DNA from: an uncultured Clostridia bacterium
Lineage (GTDB): Bacteria > Bacillota > Clostridia > Christensenellales > CAG-314
Direction of reading: 5' to 3'
DNA: 63,693 nt
Assembly: GCA_947589685.1 (NCBI GenBank)
Contig: CANQCN010000002.1
Location: 1 to 63,693, forward strand
Shown here: in pieces, positions 1 through 58,732 of the stretch
Numbering within the stretch: position 1 is the first letter of the stretch
How the letters are laid out: each line of letters opens with the position of its first letter
Program-made: the position numbers and the translations under genes
The notes under the pieces: model-generated
Database searches by the model: none
Seen by the model: the letters and a program-made list of their open reading frames with translations, nothing else
What the model was told of the DNA's origin: nothing

Positions 1-451
1 CACCAACTTGCCCGCGCTCACGGCGAAGTGTCCACAGGACACGTTCGCTTTTCGTGGCGCGCCCCTCAACTTGTTTTCGCGCAATTGACGGGGAAGGTTA
101 TTATCACAGTAACAGACTTTGTCACTGCGAATAGGGGTGGGTGGTCGGGAGCGAGGGTGTGTTTCAACTCAGTTCCCGCAACTACGGACCTGCGCCGAAG
201 TTGCGGTCCTTGTGGGGGATGCCGGGGCGGGACACTCCCCGGCGAAAGTCTACAACAATTCGCGCAGGTGTCCTGCGCCACCCACAAGTCCGACTGCGGC
301 GGCGCGTAAGCGCATTGGTTTAGGGGATATATAGTATAAAAAGAAATCGACTTTCGCCGAGGAAGTCGATTTTCTAAATGTTGTTTATTTTACCGTCGAT
401 TGCGAATGCGTTGCGCAGCAGCAAGCAATCGACCGCCGCACGTTTGGTCGG
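1..451 (+). repeat. Structured intergenic repeat family (called SIR here), copy 1; candidate ncRNA; 5' end may lie outside the window
   Basis: Shares a helix set with 19291-19850(-) and 21827-22160(+). The helices are CCGCAAC/GTTGCGG (176-182/200-206), CTTGTGGG/CCCACAAG (209-216/281-288), CCGGGG/CCCCGG (222-242), GCGCAGG/CCTGCGC (262-278) and GCGC-GTAA-GCGC (302-313). A 12-bp hairpin plus T run follows (344-376), then GTCGATTGC/GCAATCGAC (395-433) and CGACC/GGTCG (430-450). The 20-mer GCGCAATTGACGGGGAAGGT (79-98) recurs at 48086-48105. ORFs in this region are not conserved between copies. Confidence 0.8.
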
Positions 452-1819: not shown

Positions 1820-3355
1820 TCAGTCGGCGTTGTAATCGGTGACGTTGCCGCCGTTGTTCCACAGATTGTCCAGCCCGTAAACTTCGCGAGTGTCCTTGTG
1901 AAAGATGTGAACGATCACGTCGCCGTAGTCCACCGCTATCCAGCGCCCCTCGGAATAGCCCTCCTTGCGGGCGGCAAACCTGCCTTGCTTTTCCATTTGC
2001 TCTTCGAGGTGGTCAAAGATAGCCTTTACCTGCGGGATACTGCGTCCCGAACAGATGACGAAATAGTCGGCAAGATCGCTCAGCGCGCGGATCTCTACGA
2101 TTTTTATGTCGGTCGCTTGCTTTTCCGCCAAAACCTTGCATATTTGCTGCACGGCGGCAAGAGATTCTTTTGCTTCTGTCATATTGTTTTTCTCCTTGTT
2201 GTTCGATTTGATCTCCTCTTCCTTACAAGCGTCTGCCGTAAGCGGTCGGAGACCGAAGTCCTCGGCGCAGTACCAACGTATCGTCAGCTCGCTCAAAGGA
2301 CTCAAACTGTCGCAATGTCTTTGCAAACAAACCCGATACGCCTCTTTGAGACAGGCGACGAATTGCTCGTCGAGCGTGCCGCGTTTGAGATGTTCCAACG
2401 GATAGGGACGGGTGTCCTCCGTTTTGTCCGCAACGTAAACAAGCTTTTCCAACTCGCTCATATCGGGACGTCCCGTCGTGTGATACGCTATCGCGCGGAG
2501 AATATCCCTGTCGTCAATCCCGAAATCGTAATACGCCACATAGCTGCCCAAAAACGAATGTACCACCGAATCGGGCAGATCTCCTTTTGTAAAACGGTAC
2601 TTTCCGTAGTCGCTTTCGGGAATGTACTTTGCCACGTCGTGAAGCAGACAGGCGACAAAGGCTTTTTCCTTGACGTCGTCGCGAGCCAATTCCTGTCCGC
2701 GCTTGACAACGTAAAAGGTGTGTTCGAAACGCCGCGGAGTGAGATAGCGGCTCACCGCTTGCGTCATAGCCGAATGCTTGCGGTACAGACCGTTGTCCGA
2801 CACGCAGCGATCCACCGCCGCGGGGACGAGATCGCCGTTGTCCAAGCCGAAGTCGTAACGTAAGCGTATCTCCGTGGAGCTGAGGGAAGAGGGCGTCATT
2901 TGCAACAAAACGACCTTTGCGCCGAACTTGCGCTCCGCCTCACTCACGGTCGACGGGGAGACGTTTCCGCCGCGCTGCGCCACGGCAAGAGTGCAAAGCT
3001 TGGCGATGTCCTTGGGGCGATACCACTTGTCGAAGCTCGCCAGGCTGTCGCCGCCCACGATCAGATACAGCTGCGCGCCCTTATATTGCTCGGCAAAGTG
3101 CAAAAGCGTGTTGACCGTGTAGCTTTTGCCGTCGAGGTTTATCTCGTAGTCGCTTACTTCGGCGAAATCGCCGAATGCCGCCCGACACATTTGCAGACGG
3201 ACGCGTTTGTCCGCGTCGCACCGTTTGTGCGGGGGATCGCCGCAGGGCATAACTATCAACTTGTCCAATTGCAGCCGAGACAACGCCTCGCGCGCCATGG
3301 AAACGTGTACATTGTGCGGCGGATCGAAGGTTCCGCCGAAAATGCCTATTTTCAT
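1820..3355 (-). CDS. nadD: Triple fusion: nicotinate-nucleotide adenylyltransferase NadD + HD-domain YqeK + ribosome silencing factor RsfS
   Basis: The N-terminus MKIGIFGGTFDPPHNVH is the NadD motif. The middle region (...LLHDVAKY...AYHTTGRP...YVADK) is a YqeK-type HD domain. The C-terminus (...DYFVICSGRSIPQVKAI...WIAVDYGDVIVHIFHKDTREVYGLDNLW) is RsfS. It is a single 511-codon frame. Confidence 0.85.
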   Translation of the reverse strand: MKIGIFGGTFDPPHNVHVSMAREALSRLQLDKLIVMPCGDPPHKRCDADKRVRLQMCRAAFGDFAEVSDYEINLDGKSYTVNTLLHFAEQYKGAQLYLIVGGDSLASFDKWYRPKDIAKLCTLAVAQRGGNVSPSTVSEAERKFGAKVVLLQMTPSSLSSTEIRLRYDFGLDNGDLVPAAVDRCVSDNGLYRKHSAMTQAVSRYLTPRRFEHTFYVVKRGQELARDDVKEKAFVACLLHDVAKYIPESDYGKYRFTKGDLPDSVVHSFLGSYVAYYDFGIDDRDILRAIAYHTTGRPDMSELEKLVYVADKTEDTRPYPLEHLKRGTLDEQFVACLKEAYRVCLQRHCDSLSPLSELTIRWYCAEDFGLRPLTADACKEEEIKSNNKEKNNMTEAKESLAAVQQICKVLAEKQATDIKIVEIRALSDLADYFVICSGRSIPQVKAIFDHLEEQMEKQGRFAARKEGYSEGRWIAVDYGDVIVHIFHKDTREVYGLDNLWNNGGNVTDYNAD

Positions 3356-5930: not shown

Positions 5931-6681
5931 TGCGTTTCAGCTTGCGGCGCAGTCTGCCGAATACGCCCTTGTAGGGGGCGACGCAGTCGTATAGCTCGCA
6001 TTTGCCCGTTTCGAGATTGTCGGCGAGCAGCTCGAACGCGGCGTTGTTGTAACGCATATTGCAGTTGACGTCGTCGTTTTCCGGCAAGACGCCAAGAGCC
6101 GTTTGCCCCAACAGACTGAACACCTCGAAGGGGGACAGCATTTCGCCGCTTGCGACCAAGTCGCCGCGCACACGGTTGACGACTATGCTTACGGGCGTGT
6201 TGCCGATAAGCTCCGCCATGGCTTTGTCCGCGTCGCGCACGCTGGACAAATGGGGCGTGACGACCACTATCGCTTCGTCCGCGCACGCGACCGCCCGCCT
6301 GAATCCGCTGTCGATGCCTGCGGGACAGTCGATGAGCACGTAGTCGAAATTGTCTTCGAGACGGGATACGACGCGCTTAATCTGCTCGGCGTTTATCTGC
6401 CGCTTGGCAAGGTGACAGCTGGGCATAATGTACAACGTGGGCTCTTCTTTGTCCTGAATAAAGGATTGGGACGGTCGGCAGCGGTTTTCTATCACGTCCA
6501 CCAGGTCGAACACAACCTTGTCCTCTACCTGCATGGTGACGTCGAGATTGTTGAGCCCGATGTCCAGATCCATAAGCAGCACCCGCTTGGACTTGTGCGC
6601 CAACGCAATGCCCAGATTGGCGCAGACGGTAGTTTTGCCCACGCCGCCCTTGCCGCCCGTAATTACGATTTTGCGTGCCAT
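5923..6681 (-). CDS. minD: Septum site-determining ATPase MinD
   Basis: MARKIVITGGKGGVGKTT is the deviant Walker A motif. The ATG at 6681 is preceded by GGAGGTG. Confidence 0.9.
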   Translation of the reverse strand: MARKIVITGGKGGVGKTTVCANLGIALAHKSKRVLLMDLDIGLNNLDVTMQVEDKVVFDLVDVIENRCRPSQSFIQDKEEPTLYIMPSCHLAKRQINAEQIKRVVSRLEDNFDYVLIDCPAGIDSGFRRAVACADEAIVVVTPHLSSVRDADKAMAELIGNTPVSIVVNRVRGDLVASGEMLSPFEVFSLLGQTALGVLPENDDVNCNMRYNNAAFELLADNLETGKCELYDCVAPYKGVFGRLRRKLKRNA

Positions 6682-6838
6682 TGTCCTCACCTCCCGTTAC
6701 CGCTACATTGTACCACCGTTGTGCGCCGAGAAACCGCCTTCGACAAAACTTTCGCATGCAAAATCGGTCTACTTTTGCCAAATTTCGGCGAAAAAAAACG
6801 CCGCGACAACGGCGTTAATCTCAACGAGAAAAACAAAG

Positions 6839-7453
6839 CTAATTCTCAACGGAGTAGCTGCGAACGACAGCGTTTACGTCGTCGTAACCGTAGCCGCGGC
6901 TCAACAAATACCTTTGCAGCTTGCCGAGCGTTTTGAGATCGCGCGGTTTGCCGCGCATATATTTCTCCGCAAGGCGGGCGGCGTTGGACAACGCCCGTTC
7001 GGGATCCTCGCGCGACTGACTTTCGGCGAGGTTTGCCTCGATACCTCTGCCGATAAGCTCTTGTTTGAGACGGCGGCTGCCCTTTGTGGAGACGTTTTGC
7101 TCCACGTACATACGGGCGTATGCTTCGTCGTCCAGATAACGATAGTCTTGGAGCTTGGTAAGCACGTATTCGACTACATCCGAGTCGTAACCGCGTTTGA
7201 GGAGATAATCGCGCGTTTGCTTGACCGTTTTGTATCCGCGCGAAATGTAATTTGCCGCCTTGTCGAAGGCGACGGAGCGTTCGCTGTCCAGCGCGGCTTC
7301 TTTGAGACGCTCGACGGTGACCTGCTGACCTATCTTCAAGTTGAGCTTCATTACCGTAAGCATTTCCAACGCGCAAAAATATTCGCCGTCGATGTACACG
7401 TTGGCGCGGGTCTTGTTGTTCTTTTGTATCTGCAAATCGGTTACTGTCGGCAT
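6839..7453 (-). CDS. recX: RecX family regulatory protein
   Basis: Trimmed to the ATG at 7453. It shows three-helix repeat patterns (...YISRGYKTVKQTRDYLLKRGYDSDVVEYVLTKLQDYRYLDDEAYARMYV...LLSRGYGYDDV). Confidence 0.75.
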   Translation of the reverse strand: MPTVTDLQIQKNNKTRANVYIDGEYFCALEMLTVMKLNLKIGQQVTVERLKEAALDSERSVAFDKAANYISRGYKTVKQTRDYLLKRGYDSDVVEYVLTKLQDYRYLDDEAYARMYVEQNVSTKGSRRLKQELIGRGIEANLAESQSREDPERALSNAARLAEKYMRGKPRDLKTLGKLQRYLLSRGYGYDDVNAVVRSYSVEN

Positions 7454-13545: not shown

Positions 13546-13571
13546 AAAAACGCCGCGCGAAGTGCGCGGCG
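13546..13571 (-). terminator. Rho-independent terminator after dnaJ
   Basis: Hairpin CGCCGCGC/GCGCGGCG. The A5 run on the plus strand is a U run on the minus strand. Confidence 0.65.
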
Positions 13572-13610
13572 TCAAAAACCGAGTGGTCGGTAGTTAAAAC
13601 GCGTGTGACA

Positions 13611-19290: not shown

Positions 19291-19850
19291 TATCGCCCGA
19301 CCACACGTGCGGCGGTCGATTGCTTGCTGCTACGCAACGCATGCGCAATCGACGGTCAAGTAAATAACATTTAGAAAATCGACTTCCTCGGCGAAAGTCG
19401 ATTTCTTTTTATACTATATATCCCCTGAACCAATGCGCTTACGCGCCGCCGCAGTCGGACTTGGGAGTTGCGCGTGAACGCACGCGCGGTCGGATAGACC
19501 TTCGCCGGGGAGTGTCCCATATAAGGAAGCGGGGCGCGCTTTTGTTCCACTGCGCCCCGCCGTGGCTGCGGTCAACACCACACTGTGGTGATTGACTTGT
19601 CGCGCCACGCCCTTTACCCCCGCAAGGACAATAGGGTACCCGCACGATTTGAGCTTGCGAAAATTGTGTGGGAGAAGGCGTGCCCGTGTGTCAGCGGAAC
19701 CGAGTACGCAAAGCGCGCTTGGTGCTGACTAACAAGAGGCGCGCCGCGGGCGCATGTCCGTGATTGCGGAGTTTGATTGGAAACTATCCGTTTGACATAA
19801 TCGTATTGGGAGGCACCACGATATTTATTACAAAGCTTTGCTTTTGAAAA
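19291..19850 (-). repeat. SIR copy 2 (expanded form), candidate ncRNA on the minus strand
   Basis: The reverse complement is colinear with 21827-22160, including a 66-nt identical block (19433-19498 = 21955-22020). It carries extra segments at about 19647-19755 and 19517-19620. Hairpin plus U run at 19376-19404. Twin hairpins at 19296-19350 lie 6 nt from the upstream gene's stop codon. Confidence 0.8.
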
Positions 19851-21543: not shown

Positions 21544-21826
21544 ATATCTTACTCCTTGATGTGTGATTGCAAAAGTTACCGTTTTTCGCCGCGAGGCAAA
21601 CAGCCTAACGTCTATTTTGCGGCGGATATATAGTATACAATAATTTAATGAAAAATTCAATACCAAAATGAAAATTTATGGAAGAAAAACAGGATAAATT
21701 TTGCGTAGACTATCGCTCCAAAGGACAAGCGGTTAGATATTACAAATAAAATTTGCCGCTTGCGCCCGATACGCGCGTTTGCGCCTGCCGTATTTGTAAC
21801 AAAATTCACCGCAAACGAAAAGGGCT

Positions 21827-22160
21827 TATAATAAATATCCCCAAATAGCGATGGAGGCAAATCGACAGTTTTCAAAAAACTCCGCAATCACGGACACGTG
21901 CCGAGATTGCGGTCCTTGCGGGGGATGCCGGGGTATGCGACTCCCCGGCAAAATTCTATCCGACCGCGCGTGCGTTCACGCGCAACTCCCAAGTCCGACT
22001 GCGGCGGCGCGTAAGCGCATAGGATCAGGGTGTATGCAGTATAAAAAGAAATCGACTTTCGCCGAGAGAGTCGATTTCCTAAATGATGTTTATTTTACCG
22101 TCGATTGCGAATGCGTTGCGTAGCAGCAAGCAATCGACCGCCGCACGTGTGGTCGGTGGG
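21827..22160 (+). repeat. SIR copy 3 (compact form), candidate ncRNA on the plus strand
   Basis: TTCACC-N16-TATAAT (21805-21832) precedes the helices CCGCAATC/GATTGCGG (21882-21912), CCGGGG/CCCCGG, GCGCGTG/CACGCGC (21966-21983) and GCGC-GTAA-GCGC. A 12-bp hairpin plus T run (22049-22080) and twin hairpins (22100-22156) follow. Confidence 0.8.
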
Positions 22161-22240
22161 CTCATTTGGCAAATGTCGGGGGCAAAAAACAATTTCAACT
22201 GCTTTGTTACTGTTCCCCGACATTTGACACAGAGCTAAAA

Positions 22241-24278: not shown

Positions 24279-24372
24279 AGGGAGCGAGTGCGTCGCGACT
24301 CAAAATAATCTGCAACGAAGGCACGCAGTGCGCGAAGCAAAGCCGTTTTGCACCGAATACCCGACGCGACCT
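24279..24372 (+). repeat. SIR partial copy (module B only)
   Basis: GGAGCGAG...CAAAATAATCTGCAACGAAGGCACGCAGTGCGCGAAGCAAAGCCGTTTTGCACCGAATACCCGACGCGAC is nearly identical to 48384-48473. Confidence 0.75.
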
Positions 24373-39990: not shown

Positions 39991-40245
39991 AAAAAAAGCG
40001 GCGCGTCAGAAAAACGCACCGCTGAGCTTGCAACCATTTCCGACGGGTACGGCTGCACAGATGAATATATGTGCAGATTATACCGTGCGCCTTGATAACG
40101 GAGCGCTTGCCGTACTTGCCTACGAAAATTTTCAGCAAGTCTACTTGCGGGGCGATAGCTTTCGGAGCAACCGCGCGCGCCTTTCAGCCGCAGGACGCGC
40201 TCTCTGTGCCGCTTGACATCCGCAGTCTTGTCCCCACTCGAACGT
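39991..40245 (-). promoter_or_regulatory. T-box-like leader with terminator upstream of ileS (tentative AUC specifier)
   Basis: Minus-strand elements include AGAGAG...GGCUGAAAGG (Stem I-like), GAAAGCUAUCG (AUC at 40154-40156), CCGUUA (F-box-like), and the terminator AGCGGUGCGU/ACGCGCCGCU plus U7 (39991-40023). I could not find a canonical T-box 14-mer. Confidence 0.5.
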
Positions 40246-40403
40246 ATTTGATTATTGACTACATTTTAACAAATATTGCGGCGATTTGCAAGCGAATCAG
40301 ACAACTAAAACGCATGCAAAACGTCAAATTGCCACGCAACGGCTTGACCGCCCGTCAAACAAACGGTCGGCGTCTCGTTGTCGCGCAAACAAAGCCGAGA
40401 TTA

Positions 40404-43699: not shown

Positions 43700-43964
43700 A
43701 CTGCGCTAAGCGGGGAGCCGGCGGTGCCCTGTTGCTCACAATCCGCCATAGTGAGGCTGAATGTTGCAGGCGGCTCTCGGCGTGGAAAGCTGGAAACGGC
43801 AAGGAGTGTTGATACCAAGGTCTTGTGCAACGTGACGCTGTCAACCGTGTCAGGATGGGGACATAGCAGCACTAAGCAGTTTGAGCGTGTGCCACGAGGT
43901 AGCTTTGGAGTAGCCACCTACCGCGATACCGTTTCGGCGTCGATTGTCAACTGCAACGCGCAGG
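43700..43964 (+). ncRNA. ffs: Signal recognition particle RNA, long Bacillus-type (with Alu domain); ends approximate
   Basis: TTGCAA...TATAAT (43688-43693) lies upstream. The domain IV core GUGUCAGGAUGGGGACAUAGCAGCACUAAGCAG...GCGUGUGCCACGAGGUAGC parallels GUCAGGUCCGGAAGGAAGCAGC...GCGUGUGCC...UGUAGC. An Alu-like segment GUGAGGCUGAAUGUUGCAGG is present. Terminal pairing is CUGCGC (43701-06) with GCGCAG (43958-63). Confidence 0.8.
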
Positions 43965-48029: not shown

Positions 48030-48475
48030 TTACACCCCTCTTCCACCACCTATCGGTGGTCCCCCTTCCCCGTAAATTGTGCTTTGCGCAATTGACGGGG
48101 AAGGTCTGTTGTCACTGTTGTTGACTGTGTCTCCGCGAATGGGGGGGGTGGGCGAAGGGGCGTGGCGCGTTAAACCAATCACCACGGTGTGGTGTTGGTA
48201 GCTGCCACGTGAGGGCGCACTTGTCCTTTCCGTGCGCCCGTGTGCCTTATATGGAACGGTGGCTAACGGGGTCCCCGTCAAGTCGACAAAGGAGACTTGA
48301 TGGGGAGAGGAGCAGCCGCCCGACAGCGATACCGCCCGCGCTTATTGGCACGGGCGGTGATGTCAAGGGCGAGCTGCGACGACGGAGCGAGGGTGTTCCA
48401 ACGCAAAATAATCTGCAACGAGGGCACGCAGTGCGCGAAGCGAAGCCGTTTTGCACCGAATACCCGACGCGACTT
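48030..48475 (+). repeat. SIR copy 4 (mosaic/divergent form)
   Basis: Module A spans 48086-48150. A two-hairpin domain follows: CGTGGC/GCCACG (48161/48204), CACCAC/GTGGTG (48180-48194) and GGGCGCAC/GTGCGCCC (48213-48239). This domain is homologous to 19529-19609. Module B (48384-48473) ends 2 nt from the prs stop codon. Confidence 0.8.
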
Positions 48476-54070: not shown

Positions 54071-54178
54071 AAAAAAATCGACCTCGTTGACGGAGGTCGA
54101 TTTTTTTGATAGATGTCGATTGGACATTCGATCGCTTGCGCGTAACGGAGCAATCGACCGACGCACGTGTGGTCGGTA
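54071..54178 (+). repeat. SIR 3' module alone (AAATCGAC hairpin/T7 plus twin hairpins)
   Basis: AAATCGACCTC-GTTGACG-GAGGTCGATTTTTTT (54075-54107) is followed by GTCGATTG...GCAATCGACCGACGCACGTGTGGTCGG. This parallels 344-450, 22049-22156 and 19296-19404(-). Confidence 0.75.
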
Positions 54179-55145: not shown

Positions 55146-55320
55146 TTTGTTTCCTCCTGTTAAATTTTTTCGTACTCCATATCGACTTGCAGATGGAGCA
55201 ATACAAAACCCTTGCACCGTAAGGTACAAGGGCAGGAGTCTGTACAGACTTGTCAACCTTTTCGTGTACCTCGGCAAGATTTACTGTTACTTGCTGTCTT
55301 TGGAACGGTGGGGTCGTATT
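55146..55320 (-). promoter_or_regulatory. Probable L10 (rplJL) leader with an attenuator hairpin
   Basis: On the minus strand, GCCCUUGUACC-UUA-CGGUGCAAGGG plus UUUU (55205-55233) lies between rplA and rplJ. This fits the Firmicute L10-leader attenuation arrangement. Confidence 0.45.
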
Positions 55321-55339
55321 AAATTGATGGTTTCAAGGC

Positions 55340-58230: not shown

Positions 58231-58585
58231 GCCGACTCGTACATTCGGTGAAAAAGGGCTTCACGACGGGCGCCGTACAAATCAATTTTGTGCGGTGACC
58301 TTTTTTTGTTGATTTTACGGCGCGCGGGTATTCCGCGCAAAAAGGCTTCGCTTCGGGCGTCGCACATTTTAGTCAAACACAAATAGACTTGTGCGCCACC
58401 CTCGTTGCAGATTATTTTGCGTTGGAACACCCTTGCGCCTTGTGTATTGGGTCAATCAAAAGCAATATTTTTTATCAAAAAGCTTTATTTGTGCGGCACC
58501 CTTGTTGCAGATTATTTTTCATCGAATACTCTCACTTGGGTGTCACAAGGTCCCCGACCGCCCACCCCTATTCGCAGATATGAAG
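58231..58585 (-). repeat. SIR copy 5 (module A fragment plus tandemly duplicated module B), minus strand
   Basis: The reverse complement carries GCGAATAGGGGTGGG (58561-58575, identical to 127-141). It also has two AAATAATCTGCAAC boxes exactly 100 nt apart (58399-58419 and 58499-58519). Two GAAGCCNTTTTNCNCNGAAT submodules lie at 58235-58265 and 58320-58350. Confidence 0.75.
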
Positions 58586-58732
58586 TATGCAACTGAAAAA
58601 AATTATTTCGAGTATATGATCGACCTTTATATAGAGCTTTTTTATGCACTTTTGCCGCAAGCGACGTTAAAAGTCAAGACTTTGCACCACTTTGCCAATA
58701 TGCACATATGAGCAAGTGCGATATGTTCAAAT

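What the first reader, a model, noticed from the sequence alone, without database searches (positions are those of the whole stretch)
1..451. Compensatory substitutions between SIR copy 1 and copies 2/3 preserve every helix
Copy 1 differs substantially in primary sequence from copies 2/3 but keeps the same pairings. (a) GCGCAGG-UGU-CCUGCGC (262-278) corresponds to GCGCGUG-CGUU-CACGCGC (21966-21983 and 19470-19487), with two adjacent base pairs exchanged on both arms. (b) CCGCAAC/GUUGCGG (176-182/200-206) corresponds to CCGCAAUC/GAUUGCGG (21882-21889/21905-21912). (c) The long-range CUUGUGGG/CCCACAAG (209-216/281-288) corresponds to CUUG(C)GGGG/CUCCCAAG. (d) In the terminator-like hairpin, the 3' arm GGAA corresponds to GAGA, both pairing with UUUC through a shifted G-U. 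The 35-nt stretch AAGTCCGACTGCGGCGGCGCGTAAGCGCAT is invariant in all three copies. This mix of conserved single-stranded or tetraloop parts and co-varying stems is what structured RNAs show. Simple decaying DNA repeats do not show it. The copy may start upstream of position 1.
Basis: seen in the sequence. Interest (0 to 1): 0.65.

Follow-up and report, generated by a model that had tools for sequence, protein, structure and literature searches.

The report
Mosaic hairpin repeat with built-in terminator
Copy 1 belongs to a family of roughly 280-base intergenic repeats, seen so far only in a few uncultured rabbit-gut Clostridia, whose local hairpins keep pairing through double substitutions; it behaves like a mobile, modular, terminator-carrying repeat rather than a single dedicated RNA gene.

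Summary
The three copies are real: c1 176-451 (+), c2 19297-19785 (-) and c3 21867-22156 (+).

I added copies from two other rabbit-gut MAGs and from sister strains, giving 13 rows. Five local hairpins (P1, P2a, P2b, the terminator-like hairpin T and hairpin H) then show 14 pairs changed on both sides. Column shuffles give 7.9±1.6 (0/500), and slid controls give 3 or fewer.

The long-range helix (c) does not hold: 68% of cells pair and nothing covaries. The invariant block is 31 nt, not 35. Its pairing with the 3' tail cannot be tested because neither side varies.

The element is a mosaic. Other hairpin modules are nested inside it. A 3' cassette (terminator, hairpin, tail) also occurs alone. 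Copies are present, absent or internally replaced between strains with near-identical flanks. A MAG with 95% identity in the neighbouring protein has only a plain terminator at the c2 site. Assemblies break at these repeats.

There is no Rfam, plasmid, phage or JGI-metagenome match, and no RNA-seq is available.

Best reading: a new member of the mosaic or terminator-type interspersed repeats (BIME, NIME, BOX, SPRITE, bcr1), which are known to show compensatory changes. An independently transcribed structured RNA is not excluded.

The parts
1..66 (+). Upstream repeat module that is not part of the SIR unit. It holds a long hairpin (GCGCUCACGGCGAAGUGUCC-ACA-GGACACGUUCGC..GUGGCGCGC, about 13-61). 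The repeat block it sits in runs off the contig end.
   Evidence: Folds at -29 kcal/mol. The same module occurs in L002. Metagenome contig depth here is up to 1476 against 4.7 for unique flank.
56..165 (+). Second upstream module (GCGCAATTGACGGGGAAGG ... GAATAGGGGTGGGTGGTCGGGAGCGAGGGTGT). It recurs at 48068-48154 and, in part, at 58553-58595 (-).
   Evidence: (I5). It also occurs downstream of the T hairpin in L008 and L014.
162..175 (+). Leader-like motif GTTTCAACTCAGTT (family consensus AGTTTYCAAYCAAAC) just before P1.
   Evidence: Present before P1 in c2 (19771-19785), c3 (21867-21880), L005a, L005b, L008 and L014.
176..206 (+). P1 hairpin of copy 1 (CCGCAACU / AGUUGCGG closing CGG...CCG).
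   Evidence: Columns 7 and 8 of the stem each show three different Watson-Crick pairs across copies, with no mismatch in 61 cells.
209..216 (+). Its proposed partner is 281-288.
   Evidence: Pairs in c1, but only 68% of cells pair across copies and there is no covariation (helix 2). Not supported.
221..243 (+). P2a hairpin (GCCGGGG-CGGGACACU-CCCCGGC).
   Evidence: Three covarying columns. Variants are GCCGAGG/CCUCGGC, GGCGGGG/CCCCGCC and GUUGGGG/CCCCAAC. 97% of cells pair.
262..278 (+). P2b hairpin (GCGCAGG-UGU-CCUGCGC).
   Evidence: Three covarying columns, one of them showing A-U, G-C and C-G. 97% of cells pair.
285..315 (+). Invariant 31-nt block CAAGTCCGACTGCGGCGGCGCGTAAGCGCAT. It includes the GNRA-capped hairpin GCGC-GUAA-GCGC at 302-313.
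   Evidence: Exact in all three window copies. A 28-nt part is identical in 9 copies from 3 species. Loop variants elsewhere are GACA and GAUA.
344..372 (+). T hairpin: a Rho-independent, terminator-like hairpin flanked by an A-run and a U-run, so it could act in both directions.
   Evidence: Five covarying columns. The terminator scan flags it on the strand opposite to the element, followed by TTTCTTTTTA, in all three copies. A plain terminator with the same AAATCGAC/GTCGATTT stem sits at the c2 site in a relative without SIR.
395..433 (+). H hairpin (GTCGATTGC ... GCAATCGAC).
   Evidence: A-U is replaced by C-G in the Lapin-012 copies, and 99% of cells pair.
434..451 (+). 3' tail CGCCGCACGTTTGGTCGG, which is the precise end of the repeat. 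It is complementary to CCGAC-U-GCGGCG in the invariant block (290-301).
   Evidence: Homology between copies, and with strain L039, stops here. MFE folding and RNAalifold both pair it with the core. The only variable tail positions lie in the predicted bulge.
19297..19785 (-). Copy 2, with two nested modules: modX at 19629-19749 and modY at 19518-19616.
   Evidence: The sister strain L031 has the same copy without modX or modY.
21805..21839 (+). Promoter-like site TTCACC-16-TATAAT, overlapping a block TTATAATAAATAT that is also present upstream of c2 (19820-19834, -) and of L014.
21867..22156 (+). Copy 3: leader, P1 21882-21912, P2a 21927-21949, P2b 21966-21983, core 21990-22020, T 22049-22077, H 22100-22138, tail 22139-22156.
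22157..22235 (+). modW: a long hairpin module that follows copy 3 (GGCTCATTTGGCAAATGTCGGGGG ... CCCCGACATTTGACACAGAGC). It also follows the extra copy in strain L038.
54075..54176 (+). The 3' cassette on its own (T 54075-54103, H 54115-54158, tail 54159-54176), at a convergent gene junction.
   Evidence: Its T stem carries compensatory changes (CCUC/GAGG).

Best explanation
Copy 1 (about 162-451) is one member of a lineage-restricted family of mosaic interspersed repeats. The basic unit is about 280 nt, and up to about 500 nt with nested modules.

Each unit is a chain of separable hairpin modules:
- a 5' domain (P1, P2a, P2b);
- an invariant G+C-rich 31-nt block with a GNRA-capped hairpin;
- a 3' cassette made of a two-way Rho-independent terminator (T), a second hairpin (H) and an 18-nt tail complementary to the invariant block.

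Shown here:
- the hairpins keep pairing through double substitutions;
- modules occur separately, nested and in different orders;
- copies are gained, lost or internally replaced between near-identical strains, without a clean cut-and-paste footprint;
- units sit next to gene 3' ends.

Inferred:
- the units spread and reshuffle mainly by recombination or gene conversion between copies, and at pre-existing terminator hairpins, rather than by a dedicated transposase;
- they are transcribed passively with their neighbours, and in some copies from a promoter-like site of their own;
- what keeps the stems intact is their use as terminator or 3'-end-protecting structures in RNA read from either strand, helped by hairpin-templated mutation.
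For: Family and copies:
- There are three copies plus a lone 3' cassette in 64 kb.
- The same 20-mer core occurs only in two other rabbit-gut Clostridia MAGs among 185,579 GTDB species.
- It is absent from viral contigs. All 16 metagenome-contig hits are chance matches. There is no match in plasmids or phages.

Structure:
- 14 pairs change on both sides, against 7.9±1.6 in shuffles (0/500) and 3 or fewer in slid controls. All 14 lie in P1, P2a, P2b, T and H.
- RNAalifold recovers P2a, GNRA, T, H and core:tail from a plain MAFFT alignment.

Mosaic make-up:
- modX and modY sit inside c2 but not in the same copy of strain L031, although the flanks are about 100% identical.
- modX sits at a different point of the unit in L014 and L005a. 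A different module lies between P2a and P2b in the Lapin-012 copies.
- Two units lie in tandem in L005.
- The 3' cassette alone occurs at 54075-54176 and in L047.

Gain and loss:
- A full unit lies between the ParA-like gene and recX in strain L038. The window has 36 nt there, holding a plain terminator.
- At the udk 3' end, relatives carry a SIR, a cassette only, a modZ array or a plain terminator.

Repeat behaviour:
- Metagenome contig depth over the repeat is 100-300 times that of the unique flank, and contigs break there.
- The window itself starts inside a repeat.

Terminator:
- T is flagged as terminator-like on the opposite strand in all three copies.

Precedent:
- Mosaic, terminator-like and compensating repeats are known (PMC3184786).
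Against: - The 31-nt block is invariant across three species while everything around it varies. That is stronger conservation than a terminator or stabiliser role needs. It points to a specific partner, either a protein or a nucleic acid.
- A promoter-like site (10 of 12 matches) and a conserved TTATAATAAATAT block lie upstream of c2, c3 and L014. In c3 the 5' domain lies beyond T for antisense transcripts. RNA-level constraint on P1, P2a and P2b there would therefore need sense transcription from its own promoter.
- The plus strand folds 8-13 kcal/mol better than the minus strand.
- The true copy number per genome is unknown.
- No transcription data exist.
- The alignment used for the pair counts was registered by hand with nested modules removed, which leans towards the structure.
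Confidence: 0.55

Rival explanations
1. A family of independently transcribed structured small RNA genes. Each unit would have its own promoter. The RNA would run from the leader through P1, P2a and P2b to the invariant block, and would end at T or at the tail. The invariant 31-nt block with its GNRA hairpin would be the functional site, binding a protein, a ligand or a target. Nested modules would survive only where they spare the fold.
For: - Five hairpins covary.
- The single-stranded block is invariant, and the tetraloop keeps GNRA-type variants (GUAA, GACA).
- There is a promoter-like TTCACC-16-TATAAT site, and a conserved block upstream of c2, c3 and L014.
- The sense strand folds better than the antisense strand.
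- c3 and the L038 copy lie antisense to both neighbouring genes, so their 5' domains would not be covered by neighbouring transcripts that stop at T.
- A neighbouring module in the same arrays matches Gut-1 RNA just below threshold. Gut-1 is an accepted candidate non-coding RNA (PMC2864571).
Against: - Several copies have no promoter block at all: c1, L038, L005b, L002 and L010.
- In the sense direction T is followed by a poor U-tract. The tail that pairs with the core lies beyond T.
- P1's 3' arm and P2a's 5' arm are replaced in c2 and L038.
- The closest relative lacks the element at both sites.
- G·U cells do not exceed A·C cells.
- There is no match in Rfam 15.
Confidence: 0.25
2. A non-autonomous transposon of the MITE or PATE type, moved in trans by a transposase. 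The core and tail (CCGACTGCGGCGG ... CCGCCGCA-bulge-GGTCGG) would be its terminal inverted repeats, or sub-terminal hairpins read as single-stranded DNA by an IS200/IS605- or RAYT-type enzyme. The folded part might serve as a guide-RNA scaffold.
For: - All copies have a precise, invariant 3' end (...GGTCGG).
- The inverted complementarity between core and tail encloses about 165 nt, and this stretch also occurs alone (L047).
- Copies are present or absent between strains.
- Constraint on hairpins with no G·U excess fits single-stranded DNA as well as it fits RNA.
Against: - No target-site duplication or clean empty site was seen. At the recX site 36 nt are replaced, not interrupted. In c2 only the middle of the element differs between strains.
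- None of the held loci, about 300 kb with Pfam calls, carries a Y1 transposase, TnpB, IscB or RAYT gene. The only transposase is an IS30-like element with unrelated ends.
- The 5' boundary is not fixed.
Confidence: 0.12
3. The paired double changes are a by-product of mutation, not a sign of function. Intra-strand template switching during replication copies one arm of an imperfect palindrome onto the other, so hairpins in any repeated palindromic DNA stay perfect without selection on an RNA.
For: - Most double changes are runs of two adjacent pairs changed together: P1 CU/AG to UC/GA to AG/CU, P2b AG/CU to GU/AC, P2a CC/GG to UU/AA. That is the footprint template switching leaves (PMC8794818).
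- There is no strand asymmetry in wobble cells.
Against: - Loops vary freely while stems stay paired in five separate hairpins across three species.
- Between sister strains, the substitutions outside the replaced segment that I read off the alignment all fall in unpaired or unsupported positions.
- This mechanism does not explain the invariant unpaired block.
Confidence: 0.08

Closest known systems
BIMEs of enterobacteria and NIMEs of Neisseria (mosaic intergenic repeat clusters)
   Same: Intergenic arrays are built from several different short hairpin-forming motifs in variable order and number. They favour gene 3' ends and convergent junctions, and they are associated with recombination (PMC3184786).
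   Different: The modules here are longer (30-120 nt). There is no sequence similarity, no REP-type GTAG motif, and no RAYT or dRS3-type boundary repeats. The host is an uncultured Clostridia lineage.
SPRITE and BOX elements of Streptococcus pneumoniae
   Same: SPRITE is a repeat built around a Rho-independent terminator-like hairpin at gene ends. BOX is modular (A-Bn-C) with a predicted stable RNA fold (PMC3184786).
   Different: There is no sequence relation. The SIR combines a terminator cassette with a larger 5' domain and an invariant unpaired block.
bcr1 and related bcr repeats of the Bacillus cereus group
   Same: A Firmicutes interspersed repeat of about 155 bp, with non-conserved genomic distribution between strains and compensatory base changes that keep an RNA-level structure. 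bcr1 is transcribed (PMC3184786).
   Different: bcr1 is flanked by 5-bp direct repeats, which is evidence of transposition. No such duplication is seen here, and SIR transcription is untested.
Gut-1 RNA (RF01706)
   Same: A candidate non-coding RNA known only from gut metagenomes. A module in the same repeat arrays of the Lapin-012 MAG matches it at 45-47.5 bits against a gathering score of 50 (PMC2864571).
   Different: The match is to a neighbouring module, not to the SIR unit. The window itself has no Gut-1 hit.

Membership tests
Any Rfam 15 RNA family | Covariance-model score at or near the family's gathering threshold. | tested here: not met
   Nothing overlaps the three copies at gathering level or at permissive E-values. 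Homologous copies in L002, L005, L008, L010 and L014 gave no hit on the SIR unit either.
MITE (non-autonomous DNA transposon) | Terminal inverted repeats. | tested here: inconclusive
   The core CCGACTGCGGCGG and the tail CCGCCGCA..GGTCGG are inverted complements with a 6-7 nt bulge. They bound only the 3' 165 nt, not the whole unit. No inverted repeat spans the full unit.
MITE (non-autonomous DNA transposon) | Target-site duplication and a clean empty site. | tested here: not met
   At the recX site, 36 nt are replaced by about 565 nt with no duplication. In c2 the two strains differ by an internal replacement.
MITE (non-autonomous DNA transposon) | Presence or absence between close relatives, small size, no ORF. 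| tested here: met
   No ORF is conserved between copies.
REP/BIME with RAYT, or IS200/IS605 PATE with TnpB guide RNA | A cognate Y1 transposase, RAYT, TnpB or IscB gene in the genome, sharing the element's ends. | tested here: not met
   None was found among the called genes of all fetched loci or among the window ORFs that were scanned. Whole genomes could not be scanned.
Terminator-type repeat (SPRITE-like) | A G+C-rich hairpin followed by a U-run, placed at gene 3' ends. | tested here: met
   T is flagged as terminator-like on the antisense strand in c1, c2 and c3. The tail lies 6-10 nt from a convergent stop codon in c2 and in the lone cassette at 54075-54176. This also appears to hold in L002, L005b and L010, read by eye. 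Termination itself was not assayed.
Mosaic intergenic repeat (BIME/NIME/BOX-like) | Several distinct motifs combined in variable order and number. | tested here: met
   modX, modY, modW, modZ, the 'up' module and the 3' cassette occur in different combinations.
Structured non-coding RNA gene | Covariation that supports a secondary structure. | tested here: met
   Met for five local hairpins, but not for the long-range helix P2. The core:tail and GNRA helices never vary.
Structured non-coding RNA gene | A discrete transcript with its own promoter and defined ends. | not testable with these tools
   No RNA run holds the sequence. A promoter-like site exists for c3 only by consensus scan.

The most novel reading that the evidence does not exclude
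The SIR unit may be a previously undescribed class of structured non-coding RNA, about 250-280 nt long. It would be transcribed from its own promoter. Its invariant 31-nt block plus GNRA hairpin would be an active or recognition site, for example a scaffold for a nuclease or recombinase, or a catalytic core. The family would have multiplied because the RNA, or its partner, drives its own spread. The other covarying modules in the same arrays (modZ, the Gut-1-like module) would then be further members of an RNA-based mobile system in this Clostridia lineage.
Probability: 0.15. Interest if true: 0.7.

Novelty: new member of a known kind. Interest (0 to 1): 0.4.

Why it matters
- The case shows that apparent compensatory substitutions between paralogous repeat copies are real, yet do not by themselves separate an RNA gene from a mobile or recombining hairpin repeat.
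- It documents a repeat family absent from Rfam 15 and from the plasmid, phage, viral and metagenome collections searched. The family is rich in covarying hairpins and belongs to an uncultured gut Clostridia lineage.
- Such repeats break MAG assemblies, supply terminators at gene ends and reshuffle intergenic DNA between strains.
- If the invariant block proves to have a specific partner, the family would become a candidate for a new RNA-protein or RNA-guided system.

Tried and rejected
- Rfam at gathering and permissive thresholds on the window and on homologous loci found nothing on the SIR unit.
- The exact core did not occur in viral contigs.
- A degenerate core pattern in metagenome contigs gave 16 hits, all chance matches in unrelated coding DNA.
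- Distant BLAST against plasmids and phages found no match.
- I tried to harvest more copies through spurious ORFs called inside the repeat. Only one protein was found.
- No RNA-seq run holds the sequence.
- Looking up the first window protein failed because the exact product is not on record.
- I considered a CRISPR-like array for the modZ repeats (GTTGCAGATTATTTTGCG...) and rejected it. The spacing is irregular, or about 177 bp with repeated 'spacers'.
- I considered a conserved small ORF (MLFILPSIANALRSS...) and rejected it. It is interrupted in c2 and L005b.
- I considered a DUS-like uptake motif for AAATCGAC, which occurs 9 times against 0.8 expected. Four of those sites lie in the SIR copies and the lone cassette; the others I looked at do not form terminator hairpins.
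- I checked the IS30-like element that abuts the copy-1 site in strain L039 as a possible partner. Its inverted ends are unrelated to the SIR.
- I considered an alternative 15-bp helix between CCGACCGCGCGTGCG (21960-21974) and the tail. It is absent from c1 and is broken by a G-to-A change in L031, so it is not conserved.

Full report
**What is at the coordinates**

The window is a complete 63,693-bp contig of an uncultured Clostridia MAG from rabbit gut. The repeat has three copies:
- c1, about 162-451 (+);
- c2, 19297-19785 (-);
- c3, 21867-22156 (+).

The 30-mer AAGTCCGACTGCGGCGGCGCGTAAGCGCAT is exact in all three and occurs nowhere else, with 0 matches expected by chance. The maximal shared block is 31 nt (285-315), not 35.

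Between c1 and c3 the 5' domain is 73% identical and the 3' domain 92%. Each copy folds far better than dinucleotide shuffles:

| Copy | Strand | MFE (kcal/mol) | z-score |
|---|---|---|---|
| c1 | + | -128 | -6.1 |
| c3 | + | -126 | -5.7 |
| c1 | - | -115 | -4.5 |
| c3 | - | -118 | -5.0 |

- (a) and (b) are correct. In both hairpins two adjacent base pairs are exchanged on both arms. In an 8-bp register, P1 is CCGCAACU/AGUUGCGG in c1 and CCGCAAUC/GAUUGCGG in c3.
- (d) is correct. UUUC pairs with GGAA or GAGA, and the G·U shifts by one position.
- (c) is not a compensation. U-A becomes C·C (or a bulge) and one G-C becomes G·U.

**More sequences**

The 20-mer core occurs, among one genome for each of 185,579 species, only in two other rabbit-gut Clostridia MAGs, Lapin-012__bin87 and Lapin-015__bin24. 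Each has three loci. The other hits are chance matches in coding DNA. There are no hits in viral contigs. All 16 hits to a degenerate pattern in the metagenome collection are chance matches. Plasmids and phages give nothing.

Sister-strain and relative contigs were fetched through neighbouring proteins.

**Pair counts**

I built a 13-row alignment in a hand-set register, with nested modules removed and N as padding. On it, 92.8% of 626 cells form standard pairs. Fourteen pairs change on both sides. Column shuffles give 7.9±1.6 (0 of 500 reach 14), and structures slid by 1-3 columns give at most 3.

| Helix | Pairs changed on both sides | Cells paired | Verdict |
|---|---|---|---|
| P1 | 2 (three pair types each) | 95% | supported |
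| P2a | 3 | 97% | supported |
| P2b | 3 | 97% | supported |
| T | 5 | 88% | supported |
| H | 1 | 99% | supported |
| GNRA hairpin | 0 | 100% | never varies, no test |
| core:tail | 0 | 96-100% | almost invariant, no test |

RNAalifold on an unedited MAFFT alignment independently recovers P2a, GNRA, T, H and core:tail.

Two caveats apply. The rows are paralogues and close relatives, not independent lineages. The hand register also leans towards the structure.

**RNA, or which strand?**

In the five supported hairpins, G·U cells (6) do not outnumber A·C cells (10). The comparative data therefore do not single out the plus-strand RNA as the folded molecule. The 8-13 kcal/mol advantage of the plus strand is only a mild hint.

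Most double changes are runs of two adjacent pairs. That is also what replication template switching produces (PMC8794818). No RNA-seq run holds the element.

**The element is a mosaic, recombining repeat**

1. *Nested modules.* c2 carries modX (19629-19749) and modY (19518-19616). In sister strain L031 the same copy lacks both. Only the middle of the unit differs, by an internal replacement, while the flanks are about 100% identical.
   - modX sits at a different point of the unit in L014 and L005a. A different module lies between P2a and P2b in the Lapin-012 copies.
   - modY recurs at 48155-48219.
2. *The 3' cassette stands alone.* T + H + tail occur alone at 54075-54176. The cassette, with a remnant of the core, follows the udk stop codon directly in Lapin-015.
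3. *Gain and loss.*
   - Strain L038 has a full unit of about 565 nt between the ParA-like gene and recX. The window has 36 nt there, holding a plain terminator, and there is no target duplication.
   - The MAG whose udk-like protein is 95% identical has no SIR at the c2 and c3 sites. At the c2 site it has a plain two-way terminator, AAATCGACCTTG-gtact-CAAGGTCGATTT, with the same stem as T.
   - At the same udk 3' end, the 87% relative carries an array of modZ modules. The 89% relative has a plain terminator followed by a short modZ-like stretch.
4. *Repeat behaviour in assemblies.* In rabbit-gut metagenomes, contig depth over the repeat is 100-300 times that of the unique flank. Contigs break at its borders and continue into many different flanks.
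5. *Other modules around copy 1.* Positions 1-165 are other modules, so copy 1 does not run off the contig end.

**Terminator cassette**

T has an A-run upstream and a U-run downstream. The consensus scan flags it on the strand opposite to the element, followed by TTTCTTTTTA, in all three copies. It can therefore end the convergent gene's transcript, for example the FTCD_C-domain gene whose stop codon lies 6 nt from the tail of c2.

The repeat always ends at ...GGTCGG. The tail is complementary to CCGAC-U-GCGGCG in the invariant block. The only variable tail positions fall in the predicted bulge.

**What argues for more than a terminator repeat**

The 31-nt block is invariant across three species. 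A promoter-like TTCACC-16-TATAAT site lies upstream of c3, with a conserved TTATAATAAATAT block also upstream of c2 and L014. It is followed by 27-37 non-conserved bases and then a conserved leader, AGTTTYCAAYCAAAC. Other copies lack this block.

**Candidate partners**

None of the fetched loci encodes a Y1 transposase, RAYT, TnpB or IscB. The only transposase is an IS30-like element that abuts position 448 in strain L039, and its inverted ends are unrelated.

**Comparison with known systems**

The closest analogues are:
- mosaic intergenic repeats (BIME, NIME);
- modular or terminator-like pneumococcal repeats (BOX, SPRITE);
- bcr1 of the Bacillus cereus group, which is transcribed and shows compensatory changes.

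All are described in PMC3184786. There is no sequence relation to any of them, and no Rfam family matches. A neighbouring module in the Lapin-012 arrays matches Gut-1 RNA just below threshold (PMC2864571).

**Verdict**

It is wrong for the long-range helix and for 'every helix'.

- Best explanation (0.55): a new member of the mosaic, terminator-bearing interspersed repeats, whose hairpins are kept intact.
- Rival (0.25): an independently transcribed structured RNA family.
- Rival (0.12): a transposase-mobilised MITE- or PATE-like element.
- Rival (0.08): purely mutational maintenance of the hairpins.

Noticed in passing
window 24281-24370 (+), 48384-48473 (+), 58399-58443 (-), 58491-58530 (-); L008, L014, L002, L054: 'modZ' is a second repeat family with its own covarying long stem. 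GGGUGUUCCAACGCAAAA...UUUUGCGUGGAAUACCC alternates with GGGUGUUCGGUGAAAAA...UUUUUCACCGAAUAGCCC. It has conserved internal loops UAAUCUGCAAC and GAAGCC and a variable apical hairpin. It forms arrays of about 800 nt after udk in GCA_947624235.1. Rfam has no match.
   Followed up: partly
window 1-66; L002: A long-hairpin module lies at the contig start. It is the most abundant repeat in the rabbit-gut metagenome contigs, with depth up to 1476 against 4.7 for unique flank.
   Followed up: partly
L010 5785-5858 (+); L002 1468-1547 (-): There are near-threshold matches to Gut-1 RNA (RF01706): 47.5 and 45.2 bits against a gathering score of 50, with E about 1e-6. They lie in a module of short hairpins separated by GAAGU, within repeat-rich loci of the Lapin-012 MAG. 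Gut-1 was previously reported from human gut metagenomes only.
   Followed up: partly
window 19518-19616 and 19629-19749 (-); 48155-48219 (+): modY and modX are nested inside copy 2. modY recurs in another repeat cluster at 48.1 kb. modX recurs in L005, L008, L014 and L038-L040, at different points of the SIR unit.
   Followed up: partly
window 22157-22235 (+); L038 6882-6960: modW is a long hairpin module (GGCTCAnTTGGCAAATGTYGGGG...CCCCRAYATTTGACA..GAGCC). It directly follows the SIR tail in two different genomic sites.
   Followed up: no
L039 about 5940-7027: In a sister strain, an IS30-like element (rve + HTH_38, with inverted ends GGTGAATT..AAGTGCAACAC) abuts the position that corresponds to window 448. 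The SIR copy 1 and everything upstream of it are replaced there.
   Followed up: partly
window 13570-13592: The tail motif GAGTGGTCGG occurs alone, just after a plain terminator hairpin (CGCCGCGCGAAGTGCGCGGCG), next to the dnaJ stop codon.
   Followed up: no
window 39995-40251 (-), 55194-55321 (-), 43701-43963 (+): There is a sub-threshold T-box leader upstream of the class I tRNA synthetase gene (40.7 bits, E = 1.4e-5) and a sub-threshold L10 leader (42.7 against a gathering score of 44). A full-length large SRP RNA scores 144.5 bits.
   Followed up: no
window 1820-3355 (-): A single 511-aa ORF fuses a cytidylyltransferase-like (NadD-type) domain, an HD domain and RsfS.
   Followed up: no
window cols 22-26 and 127-131 of alignment A3 (c1: about 186-190 with 288-292): RNAalifold proposes that CGGAC in the apical part of P1 pairs with GUCCG at the start of the invariant block. 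The type-C P1 has CGGGC, which keeps the pairing through G·U. This could be a tertiary or alternative contact, but it is only 5 bp and cannot be tested here.
   Followed up: no
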